Notes under the pieces: generated by a model
The model's input: the letters and a program-made list of their open reading frames with translations, nothing else
Database searches by the model: none
What the model was told of the DNA's origin: nothing
Shown: in pieces, positions 46,150 through 50,386 of the stretch
Layout: each line of letters opens with the position of its first letter
How positions within the stretch are numbered: the stretch's first letter is position 1
Source of the DNA: the human T2T-CHM13v2.0 reference genome, Homo sapiens
Direction: 5' to 3' (one strand)
NCBI RefSeq assembly: GCF_009914755.1
Contig: NC_060931.1
DNA length: 64,000 nt
Program-made: the position numbers and the translations under genes

Positions 46150-46303
46150 AGCTGCCTGCCGGGGTGGGGGCCTTGGCGGGAGAGGACGGGGCCGGGTGGG
46201 GAGGAAGGCGGGGCCTGAGGCTGTGCGAGGCGAGTCGGTGTGTCCCTGGCTGGGACGGAAGTTGCACCACAAGTACAATTAGTTTCAGTTTTGTTTCTTT
46301 TCC
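46150..46303 (+). promoter_or_regulatory. TRIM56: TRIM56 promoter: GC boxes, ETS site ACGGAAGT (46255-46262), ISRE-like AGTTTCAGTTTTGTTTC (46281-46297)
   Basis: CpG/GC-rich non-repeat DNA upstream of a strong donor; TRIM56 is an established interferon-stimulated gene. Confidence 0.75.
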
Positions 46304-46377
46304 AGGCACCCAGCAACGGCGGCCTCCAGGCCTCAGGCCCCCTCACCATCCTAGAGGTCAAGATCAGCTCTGGCTAG
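46298..46377 (+). other. TRIM56: TRIM56 non-coding exon 1 (5' end approximate)
   Basis: Donor GCTAG|gtaagg at 46377/46378. Confidence 0.65.
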
Positions 46378-47065
46378 GTAAGGGGTGGGGGGCGGCACAG
46401 CTATAGGAAGGACCGAGCGGAGGGAGTAGGGGGAGGGGAGTGGAGAGAGAGCGCGGGAGGAGGAGGAAGGGAAGGAAAGGGAGGGCGTGAAGAGGCACCC
46501 GGAAGGCAGGAGGAGAGGGCAGGAGGGAAACTGCACTCGCCTCCCTCCCGCTCCGTGGCCACAGGTCCCCGCAAGAAAGACCCCGTCCCACTCTCTGAGG
46601 TCTCCTCCCAGCTCCAGAAAAGGGGACATTCCACCTAGTCTGCCCAACAAGTAGGTCTCAGCCACTGTGCCAGGAGCTCGGGACTCCCTCCCTCCAGAGG
46701 TTTCTGGAATGCATTCAGCAGGAAAAGCTAAAAGAACAGGACTCCAGGAGATAAGCCAAGGCCAAGTCTATCAGAGGGTGAGCCAGCAGCGGGAAGGGGA
46801 CCAGCCCTTCCCCTAGCGTTTTTTCTGCCCGCTCCAGAATCCGCTTTAGAAACTGTTAAATGCAGAAAGTGGGGCCTCCACCACCCGCGATGCTGCCCCA
46901 GGTCTAGCAGAAGACAGGTGTAAGGCCAGGCGGGTGCGGTGGCTCATGCCTGTAATCCTAATGCTTTGGGAAGGCCGAGACGGGAGGATAGCCTGAGGCC
47001 AGGAGTTGGAGACCAGCCTGGGCAACATAGCAAGACCCCATCTCTACAAAAAGTGATAATTTTTA

Positions 47066-47526
<461 letters not shown>

Positions 47527-47820
47527 CTAAAATAAAATAAAAAGAAGGCAGGTGTATGGGGCTTGGAGGATTAAAGCCCCCTAAGCTACTGCAAGATCCT
47601 ACCCCAACTGGCAGGACCTAGGCATCTCTGCCCACTGGGATCCCCGTCTGTGTCCTTACTGCCTGCTCCTCGCACCCTGGCACCCTATACAGCAGGACCC
47701 CAGTACCTGTGCACACAGGAGGGCTTCCACCATGTTTGCCACAAGGCCTGTGGACTGGGGACACTGAGGATTCGATTATTAGCTAAGGCCAGGGACTCCT
47801 GGTCTTGTCAGTTCTCACAG

Positions 47821-47974
47821 GTCTGACCCAACAAGTAGCACTGACATTTTTACGTTTGCTGGATGTACACACGGAAGTGGAGGAGGAGGAGGAGAAGGAG
47901 GAGGGCAGCTCCTTAGCTCAAGAGCAAGTGGCCCAAGGCCTCAGAAGACTAGAAGGAAGTTCCTGGCCATTCAG
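47821..47974 (+). other. TRIM56: TRIM56 non-coding exon 2
   Basis: ttctcacag|GT...TCAG|gtgaga; purine-rich ESE-like interior. Confidence 0.72.
47863..47916 (+). CDS. Upstream [20 protein letters not shown] in the TRIM56 leader (translation unproven)
   Basis: ATG 47863, TAG 47914-47916; only ATG in the predicted spliced leader. Confidence 0.45.
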   Translation: MYTRKWRRRRRRRRAAP

Positions 47975-48118: not shown

Positions 48119-50386
48119 ATGGTTTCCCACGGGTCCTCGCCCTCCCTCCTGGAGGCCCTGAGCAGCGACTTCCTGGCCTGTAAAATCTGCCTGGAGCAGC
48201 TGCGGGCACCCAAGACACTGCCCTGCCTGCATACCTACTGCCAAGACTGCCTGGCACAGCTGGCGGATGGCGGCCGCGTCCGCTGCCCCGAGTGCCGCGA
48301 GACAGTGCCTGTGCCGCCCGAGGGTGTGGCCTCCTTCAAGACCAACTTCTTCGTCAATGGGCTGCTGGACCTGGTGAAGGCCCGGGCCTGTGGAGACCTG
48401 CGTGCCGGGAAGCCAGCCTGTGCCCTGTGTCCCCTGGTGGGTGGCACCAGCACCGGGGGGCCGGCCACGGCCCGGTGCCTGGACTGTGCCGATGACTTGT
48501 GCCAGGCCTGTGCCGACGGGCACCGCTGCACCCGCCAGACCCACACCCACCGCGTGGTGGACCTGGTGGGCTACAGGGCCGGGTGGTATGATGAGGAGGC
48601 CCGGGAGCGCCAAGCGGCCCAGTGTCCCCAGCACCCCGGGGAGGCACTGCGCTTCCTGTGCCAGCCCTGCTCACAGTTGCTGTGCAGAGAGTGCCGCCTA
48701 GACCCCCACCTGGACCACCCCTGCCTGCCTCTGGCTGAAGCTGTGCGTGCCCGGAGGCCGGGCCTGGAGGGACTGCTGGCCGGTGTGGACAATAACCTGG
48801 TGGAGCTGGAGGCAGCGCGGAGGGTGGAGAAGGAGGCGCTAGCCCGGCTGCGGGAGCAGGCGGCCCGGGTGGGGACTCAGGTGGAGGAGGCGGCTGAGGG
48901 CGTCCTCCGGGCCCTGCTGGCCCAGAAGCAGGAGGTGCTGGGGCAGCTACGAGCCCACGTGGAGGCTGCCGAAGAAGCTGCTCGGGAGAGGCTGGCGGAG
49001 CTTGAGGGCCGGGAGCAGGTGGCCAGGGCCGCAGCCGCCTTCGCCCGCCGGGTACTCAGCCTGGGGCGAGAGGCCGAGATCCTCTCCCTGGAAGGGGCGA
49101 TCGCACAGCGGCTCAGGCAGCTGCAGGGCTGCCCCTGGGCACCAGGCCCGGCCCCCTGCCTGCTCCCACAGCTGGAGCTCCATCCTGGGCTCCTGGACAA
49201 GAACTGCCACCTTCTTCGGCTGTCCTTTGAGGAGCAGCAGCCCCAGAAGGATGGTGGGAAAGACGGAGCTGGTACCCAGGGAGGTGAGGAGAGCCAGAGC
49301 CGGAGGGAGGATGAGCCGAAGACTGAGAGACAGGGTGGAGTCCAGCCCCAGGCTGGAGATGGAGCCCAGACCCCAAAAGAGGAAAAAGCCCAGACAACCC
49401 GAGAAGAGGGAGCCCAGACCTTGGAGGAGGACAGGGCCCAGACACCCCACGAGGATGGAGGACCCCAGCCCCACAGGGGTGGCAGACCCAACAAGAAGAA
49501 AAAGTTCAAAGGCAGGCTCAAGTCAATTTCCCGGGAGCCCAGCCCAGCCCTGGGGCCGAATCTGGACGGCTCTGGCCTCCTCCCCAGACCCATCTTTTAC
49601 TGCAGTTTCCCCACGCGGATGCCTGGAGACAAGCGGTCCCCCCGGATCACCGGGCTCTGTCCCTTCGGTCCCCGGGAGATCCTGGTGGCGGATGAGCAGA
49701 ACCGGGCACTGAAACGCTTCTCCCTCAACGGCGACTACAAGGGCACCGTGCCGGTCCCTGAGGGCTGCTCCCCTTGCAGCGTGGCCGCCCTGCAGAGCGC
49801 GGTGGCCTTCTCCGCTAGCGCACGGCTCTATCTCATCAACCCCAACGGCGAAGTGCAGTGGCGCAGGGCCCTGAGCCTCTCCCAGGCCAGCCACGCGGTG
49901 GCGGCACTGCCTAGCGGGGACCGCGTGGCTGTCAGCGTGGCGGGCCACGTGGAGGTGTACAATATGGAAGGCAGCCTGGCCACCCGGTTCATTCCTGGAG
50001 GCAAGGCCAGCCGGGGCCTGCGGGCGCTGGTGTTTCTGACCACCAGCCCCCAGGGGCATTTCGTGGGGTCGGACTGGCAGCAGAATAGTGTGGTAATCTG
50101 TGATGGGCTGGGCCAGGTGGTTGGGGAGTACAAGGGGCCAGGCCTGCATGGCTGCCAGCCGGGCTCCGTGTCTGTGGATAAGAAGGGCTACATCTTTCTG
50201 ACCCTTCGAGAAGTCAACAAGGTGGTGATCCTGGACCCGAAGGGGTCCCTCCTTGGAGACTTCCTGACAGCCTACCACGGCCTGGAAAAGCCCCGGGTTA
50301 CCACCATGGTGGATGGCAGGTACCTGGTCGTGTCCCTCAGTAACGGGACCATCCACATCTTTCGGGTCCGTTCTCCGGACAGTTAA
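48119..50386 (+). CDS. TRIM56: E3 ubiquitin ligase TRIM56 (RING, B-boxes, coiled coil, disordered linker, NHL-like repeats), single coding exon
   Basis: 755-aa ORF; C3HC4 RING CKIC..CLHTYCQDC..CPEC, B-box CPQH..CQPC..CREC..H..H; acceptor ctgcag|C ATG G with strong Kozak. Confidence 0.98.
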   Translation: MVSHGSSPSLLEALSSDFLACKICLEQLRAPKTLPCLHTYCQDCLAQLADGGRVRCPECRETVPVPPEGVASFKTNFFVNGLLDLVKARACGDLRAGKPACALCPLVGGTSTGGPATARCLDCADDLCQACADGHRCTRQTHTHRVVDLVGYRAGWYDEEARERQAAQCPQHPGEALRFLCQPCSQLLCRECRLDPHLDHPCLPLAEAVRARRPGLEGLLAGVDNNLVELEAARRVEKEALARLREQAARVGTQVEEAAEGVLRALLAQKQEVLGQLRAHVEAAEEAARERLAELEGREQVARAAAAFARRVLSLGREAEILSLEGAIAQRLRQLQGCPWAPGPAPCLLPQLELHPGLLDKNCHLLRLSFEEQQPQKDGGKDGAGTQGGEESQSRREDEPKTERQGGVQPQAGDGAQTPKEEKAQTTREEGAQTLEEDRAQTPHEDGGPQPHRGGRPNKKKKFKGRLKSISREPSPALGPNLDGSGLLPRPIFYCSFPTRMPGDKRSPRITGLCPFGPREILVADEQNRALKRFSLNGDYKGTVPVPEGCSPCSVAALQSAVAFSASARLYLINPNGEVQWRRALSLSQASHAVAALPSGDRVAVSVAGHVEVYNMEGSLATRFIPGGKASRGLRALVFLTTSPQGHFVGSDWQQNSVVICDGLGQVVGEYKGPGLHGCQPGSVSVDKKGYIFLTLREVNKVVILDPKGSLLGDFLTAYHGLEKPRVTTMVDGRYLVVSLSNGTIHIFRVRSPDS

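What the first reader, a model, noticed from the sequence alone, without database searches (positions are those of the whole stretch)
47863..47916. Poly-arginine uORF as the sole upstream AUG of the antiviral ligase TRIM56
Seen: ATG TAC ACA CGG AAG TGG (AGG)4 AGA (AGG)3 GCA GCT CCT TAG = [17 protein letters not shown], in weak Kozak context (TGGATGT). It ends 59 nt before the strong-context main AUG after splicing, and no other ATG occurs in the predicted exons 1-2. Known: polybasic nascent chains slow ribosomes, uORFs gate translation under eIF2-alpha phosphorylation (PKR/GCN2), and R8 peptides bind RNA and cross membranes. Inference: a stall- or arginine-sensitive switch coupling TRIM56 output to stress or Arg supply, removable by skipping exon 2. 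Alternatively the AGG run is only a splicing enhancer.
Basis: partly seen in the sequence, partly recalled or inferred. Interest (0 to 1): 0.75.

Follow-up and report, generated by a model that had tools for sequence, protein, structure and literature searches.

The report
Catalogued poly-arginine uORF in TRIM56 leader
The short upstream reading frame encoding eight arginines in the TRIM56 leader is real, but it is already listed in the public catalogue of ribosome-profiled human ORFs as a young, primate-lineage uORF, and the evidence points to an ordinary mild brake on translation, not an arginine or stress sensor.

Summary
ATG at 47863 opens a 17-codon frame, [17 protein letters not shown]. 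It is the only ATG in the 255-nt spliced leader, sits in weak context, and ends 59 nt before the strong-context TRIM56 AUG.

None of this exceeds chance. Shuffled leaders carry 0.96 ATG on average, and the arginine run is a (GGA)n microsatellite read in one of three frames.

The ORF is already public. It is GENCODE Ribo-seq ORF c7riboseqorf98, with the identical peptide. Sandmann 2023 classes it as a "primatomorpha - young", de novo ORF with negative PhyloCSF and no mass-spectrometry support. Footprints cover it in 64 of 65 lymphoblastoid lines.

Published tests argue against the proposed switch. Arginine limitation pauses ribosomes at CGC/CGU, not AGG. Runs of 20 arginine codons do not stall HEK293T ribosomes. 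However, arginine-rich uORFs can repress reporters.

Most likely it is a mild constitutive cis-dampener working by leaky scanning plus reinitiation. No TRIM56-specific functional test was found. Interest is low.

The parts
46287..46377 (+). TRIM56 exon 1 (5' UTR, 91 nt), no ATG
   Evidence: Hub annotation NM_030961.3; sequence, GT donor (GTAAGG), no ATG.
47812..47974 (+). TRIM56 exon 2 (5' UTR, 163 nt) carrying the uORF. Acceptor has a modest pyrimidine tract; donor is CAG|GTGAGA.
   Evidence: pyrimidine fraction at -20..-3 is 0.61, against 0.72 for exon 3.
47863..47916 (+). The uORF: 17 codons plus [20 protein letters not shown]. This is GENCODE Ribo-seq ORF c7riboseqorf98.
   Evidence: sequence. 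(catalogue row with identical peptide, GRCh38 chr7:101087057-101087110, uORF, primatomorpha-young, de novo). (footprint TPM in 65 LCLs).
47863..47865 (+). uORF start codon ATG in weak context (T at -3, T at +4); sole ATG of the leader
47879..47905 (+). 27-nt uninterrupted purine tract, a (GGA/AGG)n microsatellite. It reads Arg in the uORF frame, Glu in the main frame and Gly in the third.
   Evidence: TRF, period 3, 8.7 copies. (27-nt purine run). (three-frame translation). (ViennaRNA with G-quadruplex option places a two-tier G4 here).
47914..47916 (+). uORF stop TAG, preceded by a Pro codon (CCT). It lies 59 nt before the main AUG in the mRNA and 58 nt before the exon 2/3 junction.
48119..50386 (+). 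TRIM56 main ORF (755 aa, RING at residues 21-59, B-box at 166-205). AUG in strong context.
   Evidence: context TTCAGCATGG. (Pfam RING and B-box matches).

Best explanation
This is an evolutionarily young AUG-initiated uORF that arose when an ATG came to lie upstream of, and in the AGG frame of, a (GGA)n purine microsatellite in TRIM56 5'-UTR exon 2. It arose in the primate lineage from non-coding sequence. Ribosomes do occupy it (shown by published catalogues). Its peptide is not under coding selection and is probably a by-product. Its likely effect, which is inferred and not shown, is a mild constitutive dampening of TRIM56 translation in cis. Because the uATG has T at -3 and T at +4, most scanning 43S complexes should leak past to the strong main AUG. 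The minority that initiate translate 17 codons and terminate at Pro-UAG. Part of them then resume scanning and reinitiate 59 nt downstream. The arginine run, the purine tract that encodes it, or both may lower reinitiation somewhat, as seen for other arginine-rich uORFs. Because the uORF stop lies 58 nt upstream of the last exon junction, terminating ribosomes may also expose the mRNA to some nonsense-mediated decay (inferred from geometry only). It is not a dedicated arginine sensor or a terminal-stall element.
For: Sequence anatomy. Translation: the exact peptide is listed as uORF c7riboseqorf98 of TRIM56 in the table of the 7,264-ORF GENCODE Ribo-seq catalogue re-analysed by Sandmann 2023. 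GENCODE's own paper calls ORFs named 'riboseqorf' replicated Ribo-seq ORFs. Footprint TPM is non-zero in 64 of 65 Yoruba LCLs, about 50 TPM on average. Youth and lack of peptide selection: 'primatomorpha - young', 'de_novo_ORF', PhyloCSF primates -14.89, mammals -113.24, 0 mass-spectrometry studies; category definitions. Class behaviour: 4 of 5 arginine-rich uORFs repressed a luciferase reporter relative to ATG mutants, and 2 of them were relieved by Arg-to-Ala changes. The FZD1 poly-Arg uORF is 'translation-restricted'. Not unique: R8 strings occur 12 times and R6 strings 31 times in the catalogue file, for example in the WAPL and MAPKAPK5 uORFs. Against a special RNA structure: exon 2 z = +1.36 and leader plus 40 nt z = +1.08 versus shuffles. 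The leaky-scanning and reinitiation logic is established scanning-model knowledge, recalled and not tested here.
Against: No experiment on this leader exists in what I could search, so both the size and the sign of the effect on TRIM56 output are unknown. The LCL TPM values are not frame-resolved, so some footprints could come from other frames. I could not see the original Mudge 2022 tables, which list the studies and callers that detected the ORF. No TRIM56 CDS value was in the LCL table, so the uORF:CDS occupancy ratio is unknown. About 50 TPM in nearly every LCL is not negligible for a weak-context AUG, so initiation may be more efficient than the Kozak context suggests. Sandmann et al. 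report significantly higher ATG conservation in young translated sORFs than in untranslated controls, which leaves room for a selected regulatory role.
Confidence: 0.55

Rival explanations
1. First reader's model. The R8 nascent chain or its codons stall ribosomes, so the uORF is a switch that couples TRIM56 synthesis to eIF2-alpha phosphorylation or arginine supply. This would resemble single-uORF bypass in CHOP/GADD34 or a metabolite-sensing arrest peptide.
For: It is a single weak-context uORF with a basic peptide and a Pro codon before the stop. That resembles, from recall, the CHOP and GADD34 inhibitory uORFs that are bypassed under stress. Arginine dependence of repression was seen for 2 of 5 tested arginine-rich uORFs. 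The FZD1 poly-Arg uORF restricts translation. One codon of the run is AGA, which paused in GCN2-knockout cells and lowered reporter synthesis in long arginine limitation.
Against: Seven of the eight run codons are AGG. Arginine limitation raised ribosome density only at CGC and CGU in three cell lines. (CGA)20 and (CGG)20 did not stall in HEK293T, and those authors conclude that poly-arginine beyond genomic lengths does not stall appreciably; AGG and AGA were not among the codons they tested. Negative PhyloCSF gives no sign of peptide-level constraint of the kind arrest peptides show. No stress or arginine data exist for this leader.
Confidence: 0.1
2. The functional unit, if any, is the purine tract as RNA, and the uORF is an incidental neutral by-product of an ATG upstream of it. 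The tract could be an exonic splicing enhancer that secures inclusion of exon 2, a two-tier (GGA)n G-quadruplex, or a polypurine site for eIF4A.
For: A 27-nt uninterrupted purine run lies mid-exon. The exon 2 acceptor has the poorer pyrimidine tract (0.61 versus 0.72). ViennaRNA with the G-quadruplex option places a G4 in the tract and lowers the MFE from -97.1 to -107.5 kcal/mol. The peptide is not under coding selection. Sandmann et al. themselves could not separate amino-acid from nucleotide effects in their Arg-to-Ala mutants. That purine-rich GGA/GAA motifs bind SR proteins and that (GGA)4 RNA forms quadruplexes is recalled, not tested.
Against: Purine runs of 20 nt or more are common in this window: 24 on the + strand, many of them outside exons, so the tract needs no function. 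No splicing data were available. Ribosomes do occupy the uORF, so it is not silent.
Confidence: 0.2
3. The leader is read in the main frame from a near-cognate codon, giving an N-terminally extended TRIM56 with a poly-Glu patch. The footprints over the uORF region would then partly belong to that frame.
For: The whole 255-nt leader (85 codons) has no stop in the main frame. The tract reads EVEEEEEKEEG. A GTG sits in good context (GAAGTGG) 33 codons upstream, and there are in-frame CTGs.
Against: A stop-free main frame occurs in 5.7% of shuffles, so it is not significant. The catalogue calls the ATG frame, not an extension. The region is young and has negative PhyloCSF scores for the uORF frame; main-frame scores were not available. 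The RING starts at residue 21 of the annotated protein, so nothing is missing.
Confidence: 0.05
4. The main consequence of uORF translation is mRNA destabilisation. Termination 58 nt upstream of the exon 2/3 junction leaves an exon-junction complex downstream and triggers nonsense-mediated decay. This can coexist with the best explanation.
For: Geometry only. The stop is at 47914-47916 and exon 2 ends at 47974, which just exceeds the recalled 50-55-nt rule.
Against: The listing of the TRIM56 plus 'nonsense-mediated' search showed 15 of 25 hits; none looked from title or abstract like a report of TRIM56 mRNA as an NMD target, and I did not open them. Weak uATG use and leaky scanning would limit the effect, and 58 nt is borderline.
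Confidence: 0.1

Closest known systems
GENCODE Ribo-seq ORF c7riboseqorf98 (Mudge et al. 2022 catalogue, as tabulated by Sandmann et al. 2023, PMC10032668)
   Same: It is the same object: identical 17-aa peptide, same gene, uORF biotype, single-exon 54-nt ORF on chr7 + strand.
   Different: Nothing differs in sequence. The catalogue assigns no function. This report adds the leader anatomy, the chance controls and the evaluation of the switch hypothesis.
Arginine-rich repressive uORFs (ASB15, PECAM1 and others in Sandmann 2023; FZD1 poly-Arg 'translation-restricted' uORF in Hashimoto 2026 preprint)
   Same: Short, hydrophilic, arginine-rich uORF peptides in 5' leaders. In reporters they repress downstream translation in an ATG-dependent way, and for some the repression also depends on the arginines.
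   Different: The tested Sandmann set was 3-15 aa, whereas this uORF is 17 aa and was not in their interaction screen (TRIM56 occurs only in the catalogue file). Hashimoto's set was evolutionarily conserved uORFs, whereas this one is young. TRIM56 is not named in either main text.
CHOP (DDIT3) and GADD34 (PPP1R15A) single inhibitory uORFs bypassed on eIF2-alpha phosphorylation (recalled from the literature, not looked up here)
   Same: A single uORF in poor initiation context with a C-terminal region thought to hinder termination or reinitiation, upstream of a strong main AUG.
   Different: Those uORFs are conserved across mammals, and their inhibitory and stress-bypass behaviour is experimentally shown. 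Here conservation is primate-level only and there are no stress data.
Fungal arginine attenuator peptide (arg-2/CPA1 uORF) (recalled)
   Different: The attenuator peptide is a conserved 24-25-aa peptide that senses free arginine in the exit tunnel and stalls at termination. It is not a poly-Arg run and does not act through codon supply. This uORF shows no peptide conservation.
ATF4/GCN4 delayed-reinitiation leaders (recalled)
   Same: uORF-mediated coupling to eIF2-alpha phosphorylation.
   Different: That mechanism needs at least two uORFs, the last one inhibitory or overlapping the main ORF. This leader has one ATG uORF that ends 59 nt before the AUG.

Membership tests
Translated AUG uORF (GENCODE Ribo-seq ORF class) | AUG in the 5' leader of the mature mRNA, upstream of the annotated CDS | tested here: met
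   ATG at leader index 142 of 255, and the only ATG.
Translated AUG uORF (GENCODE Ribo-seq ORF class) | In-frame stop before the main AUG (non-overlapping uORF) | tested here: met
   TAG at 47914-47916, 59 nt before the main AUG, and in a different frame from the CDS.
Translated AUG uORF (GENCODE Ribo-seq ORF class) | Ribosome footprints supporting translation of the frame | not testable with these tools
   No Ribo-seq reads were available. Published tables list it as c7riboseqorf98 and give non-zero footprint TPM in 64 of 65 LCLs. Frame resolution and the original caller evidence were not seen.
Translated AUG uORF (GENCODE Ribo-seq ORF class) | Measurable effect on main-ORF output | not testable with these tools
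   This needs reporter or genome-edited cells. No such study was found.
Peptide-dependent ribosome-arrest uORF (AAP, CMV gp48 uORF2, AMD1 MAGDIS type) | Conservation of the peptide sequence (selection at amino-acid level) | tested here: not met
   Published PhyloCSF is -14.89 (primates) and -113.24 (mammals). The ORF is classed as young and de novo, not conserved in non-primate mammals. This comes from the literature table, not from my own alignment.
Peptide-dependent ribosome-arrest uORF (AAP, CMV gp48 uORF2, AMD1 MAGDIS type) | Ribosome arrest at a defined codon (toeprint, footprint or disome peak) | not testable with these tools
   No positional footprint data. Indirectly, poly-Arg (CGA/CGG x20) did not stall in HEK293T.
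ATF4/GCN4-type delayed reinitiation leader | Two or more uORFs, with the distal one inhibitory or overlapping the CDS | tested here: not met
   one ATG in the leader, and the uORF does not overlap the CDS.
CHOP/GADD34-type single inhibitory uORF with stress bypass | Single uORF with a poor start context upstream of a strong main AUG | tested here: met
   TGCTGGATGT versus TTCAGCATGG.
CHOP/GADD34-type single inhibitory uORF with stress bypass | The uORF is strongly inhibitory and is bypassed when eIF2-alpha is phosphorylated | not testable with these tools
   No data on this. The TRIM56 plus uORF and TRIM56 plus Ribo-seq searches gave only irrelevant papers.
Codon-supply sensor of arginine limitation | Built from codons at which ribosomes pause when arginine is limiting | tested here: not met
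   The run is 7 AGG plus 1 AGA, with one CGG earlier in the uORF. Published pausing is at CGC and CGU, with AGA pausing in GCN2-knockout cells and an AGA effect in long reporter assays.

The most novel reading that the evidence does not exclude
The uORF could be a primate-specific rheostat on an interferon-inducible antiviral E3 ligase. In this reading, slow termination of the R8...Pro-UAG nascent chain lowers reinitiation. Because the stop lies 58 nt upstream of the last exon junction, it also feeds TRIM56 mRNA into nonsense-mediated decay. Stress-induced bypass of the weak uATG (PKR or GCN2 activity during infection), or virus-induced NMD inhibition, would then raise TRIM56 output exactly when it is needed.
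Probability: 0.08. Interest if true: 0.5.

Novelty: already known. Interest (0 to 1): 0.18.

Why it matters
TRIM56 is an interferon-inducible RING E3 ligase, so translational control of it would bear on innate immunity. A lineage-specific uORF would also be a small example of recent regulatory evolution. But about half of human leaders carry uORFs (recalled). This one is already in the reference catalogue with its age and coding scores. Arginine-rich repressive uORFs are a described class. Published data argue against both proposed triggers, arginine supply and polybasic stalling. The practical value of this report is to close the sequence-level questions and to show that only a leader-reporter experiment would add knowledge.

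Tried and rejected
1. Chance controls. The count of ATGs in the leader and the stop-free main frame are both within expectation: mean 0.96 ATG, P(one or none) = 0.76, and P(stop-free) = 0.057. I therefore rejected 'sole uATG' and 'open main frame' as signals.

2. RNA structure. Exon 2 (z = +1.36) and the leader plus 40 nt (z = +1.08) fold no better than shuffles. The predicted pairing of the purine tract with CCCUCC stretches in exon 1 and early CDS rests on at most 7 complementary bases. I dropped it.

3. Literature.
- TRIM56 plus uORF gave 2 papers, both irrelevant: one has TRIM56 only in a reference title, the other only in a variant table.
- TRIM56 plus Ribo-seq gave 1 paper, the same irrelevant one.
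- The peptide string and the ORF id appear in no main text.
- A broad five-term search was badly designed, because min_terms 2 did not force TRIM56. It gave no TRIM56 paper among the 25 listed, though it surfaced the Hashimoto preprint.
- A CRISPR screen preprint of 978 uORFs does not name TRIM56 in its main text.

4. NMD. The TRIM56 plus 'nonsense-mediated' listing showed 15 of 25 hits, and by title or abstract none reports TRIM56 mRNA as a target. I did not open them.

5. Sources that were not available.
- Mudge 2022 was not held by DOI or by my recalled PMC id.
These could bear on peptide detection and NMD status.
- bioRxiv supplements are closed, so TRIM56 may appear in tables of the Hashimoto and CRISPR-screen preprints that I could not see.

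6. Cross-species alignment. No vertebrate genomes are reachable with these tools, so conservation rests on the published classification alone.

7. ISRE motif. A window-wide scan gave 9 matches against 6.2 expected. Only the position of one match at the TSS is of note.

Full report
**Observation**

The sequence is as described. Window 47863-47916 on the + strand reads ATG TAC ACA CGG AAG TGG (AGG)4 AGA (AGG)3 GCA GCT CCT TAG and translates to [17 protein letters not shown].

I spliced the RefSeq exons by coordinates (46287-46377, 47812-47974, 48118 onward). The resulting leader is 255 nt and contains exactly one ATG, at leader index 142.
- The uATG context is TGCTGGATGT, with T at -3 and T at +4.
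- The main AUG context is TTCAGCATGG, with A at -3 and G at +4.
- 59 nt separate the uORF stop from the main AUG.
- Both introns have GT-AG borders.
- Skipping exon 2 would leave CTAG|CATGG with no upstream ATG. I have no evidence that such skipping occurs.
- The downstream ORF is a 755-aa RING/B-box protein, with the RING at residues 21-59. This is consistent with the TRIM56 annotation.

**Is it more than chance?**

No.
- In 20,000 dinucleotide-preserving shuffles of the leader, the mean number of ATGs was 0.96, and 76% of shuffles had one or none.
- The arginine run is a period-3 GGA microsatellite of 8.7 copies at 47879-47904. It lies inside a 27-nt uninterrupted purine tract.
- Read in the other two frames, the tract gives Glu (the main frame) and Gly.
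- Purine runs of 20 nt or more occur 24 times on the + strand of this window.
- A poly-Arg uORF is therefore what results when an ATG lies upstream of such a repeat in one of three frames.

**What is already known**

The exact peptide is listed in supplementary file 1 of Sandmann et al. 2023 (PMC10032668). I saw the row, the header and main-text passages. That file tabulates the 7,264 ORFs of the GENCODE Ribo-seq ORF catalogue. The row reads:
- c7riboseqorf98, TRIM56, ENSG00000169871;
- GRCh38 chr7:101087057-101087110 +, biotype uORF;
- conservation 'primatomorpha - young' and mode 'de_novo_ORF';
- 0 mass-spectrometry studies;
- PhyloCSF primates -14.89 and mammals -113.24.

By the paper's definitions, the terms mean the following.
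- 'Young' means the amino-acid sequence is not conserved in non-primate mammals.
- 'Primatomorpha' means the start codon (same position, or within 6 nt in frame) and at least 70% of the ORF without a stop are inferred in the reconstructed ancestor of primates and colugos. The authors caution that such ORFs may be present only in a subset of species.

GENCODE's 2023 paper refers to ORFs with 'riboseqorf' names as replicated Ribo-seq ORFs (passage seen). That the name marks detection by more than one study is otherwise my recollection.

The peptide has the same length in GRCh38 (the catalogue) and in this T2T window.

Independently, Vara et al. 2024 (PMC11221430; supplement sheet 'uORFTPM') give footprint TPM for this ORF in 65 Yoruba lymphoblastoid lines.
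- 64 of 65 values are non-zero, with an average of about 50 (analysed 64 of them; the header shows that the first value is also a sample).
- These TPMs are not frame-resolved.
- The table has no TRIM56 CDS row for comparison.

No main text in the searched library names this ORF, its peptide or a TRIM56 uORF. The two hits for TRIM56 plus uORF are irrelevant.

**How it most likely works**

What is shown is an AUG uORF that ribosomes occupy, that is young, and that has no coding-type constraint.

The rest is inferred from the scanning model (recalled).
- The poor context should let most 43S complexes leak past to the strong main AUG.
- A 17-codon uORF followed by 59 nt is permissive for partial reinitiation.
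- The net expectation is mild constitutive repression.

Arginine richness may add to this.
- Sandmann et al. found 16 arginine-rich uORF peptides of 3-15 aa that bound translation machinery.
- Of five tested in luciferase reporters, four repressed relative to ATG mutants, and two (ASB15, PECAM1) were relieved by Arg-to-Ala changes.
- The authors noted that they could not separate peptide from nucleotide effects.
- A 2026 preprint (Hashimoto et al.; abstract and passages seen) defines basic-residue-rich 'translation-restricted' uORFs and cites the FZD1 poly-arginine uORF as an extreme case.
- TRIM56 is in neither main text.
- R8 strings occur 12 times and R6 strings 31 times in the catalogue file, for example in the WAPL and MAPKAPK5 uORFs. 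The TRIM56 case is therefore rare but not singular.

**Why the proposed switch is disfavoured**

Arginine supply:
- Darnell et al. 2018 (preprint passages) found increased ribosome density on arginine limitation only at CGC and CGU, which are decoded by tRNA-Arg-ACG.
- AGA pausing emerged in GCN2-knockout cells, and AGA lowered reporter synthesis in long limitation.
- AGG was not reported to pause.
- The run here is seven AGG and one AGA.

Polybasic stalling:
- Juszkiewicz and Hegde 2017 (passages) found (CGA)20 and (CGG)20 'impervious to stalling' in HEK293T.
- They concluded that poly-arginine beyond genomic lengths does not stall appreciably; only poly(A) did.
- They did not test AGG or AGA, and slowing short of terminal stalling is not excluded.

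eIF2-alpha control:
- With a single non-overlapping uORF, the ATF4-type mechanism is not available.
- A CHOP/GADD34-type bypass (recalled) remains formally possible. The weak context and the Pro codon before the stop fit that pattern, but nothing tests it.

Trans-acting peptide: negative PhyloCSF and zero MS support give no backing. A tryptic digest of this peptide would be nearly undetectable anyway, which is my inference.

**Rivals at the RNA level**

- The leader is not unusually structured: exon 2 has z = +1.36 and the leader plus 40 nt has z = +1.08.
- With the G-quadruplex option, ViennaRNA places a two-tier G4 in the GGA tract and lowers the MFE from -97.1 to -107.5 kcal/mol.
- The exon 2 acceptor has the weaker pyrimidine tract (0.61 versus 0.72).
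- The whole leader is open in the main frame, with a GTG in good context 33 codons upstream. However, 5.7% of shuffles are also open, so this is not evidence of an extension.
- The uORF stop lies 58 nt upstream of the exon 2/3 junction, just past the recalled 50-55-nt NMD threshold. uORF termination might therefore cost some mRNA stability.

**Verdict**

Its specific form, an arginine- or stall-sensitive switch, is disfavoured.

It is best filed as an ordinary, young, weak-context uORF on a purine microsatellite. It probably acts as a mild cis-dampener, and its function is untested.

Limits of this report:
- Conservation rests on one published classification, because no vertebrate genomes were reachable.
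- The original Mudge 2022 tables were not held.

Noticed in passing
window 46281-46292 (- strand), straddling the annotated TRIM56 transcription start at 46287: AAAACTGAAACT matches the recalled ISRE core GAAANNGAAACT with one mismatch. The + strand reads AGTTTCAGTTTTGTTTC across the start of exon 1. This would fit interferon-inducible transcription of TRIM56. Window-wide the motif count is not above chance (9 versus 6.2 expected), so only the position is notable.
   Followed up: partly
window 46287-46377, 47812-47974 and 48118 (the spliced leader): All 85 codons of the 5' UTR are stop-free in the frame of the TRIM56 CDS. The AGG run reads as a Glu run (EVEEEEEKEEG) in that frame. An in-frame GTG at leader index 156 has a good context, GAAGTGG. 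The probability in shuffles is 0.057, so this is probably chance.
   Followed up: yes
window 47914-47974: The uORF stop codon lies 58 nt upstream of the last exon-exon junction. This just meets the recalled 50-55-nt rule for EJC-dependent nonsense-mediated decay. No data were found on whether TRIM56 mRNA is NMD-sensitive.
   Followed up: partly
window 46380-46530 (start of intron 1): A long purine-rich GGA/GGGA-type stretch follows the exon 1 donor; it includes a 31-nt pure purine run at 46455-46485. The locus therefore carries several purine microsatellites, and the exon 2 tract is not special in composition.
   Followed up: no
window 46920-47520 (intron 1): This stretch holds Alu-like repeats with a 24-nt poly(A) at 47367-47390. 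The part from 47084 to 47511 is flagged as repeat-masked by the hub; the part from 46920 to 47083 is not in the hub's listed (longest) masked stretches. Exon 2 itself is not flagged, and the catalogue classes the ORF as de novo and not TE-derived.
   Followed up: no
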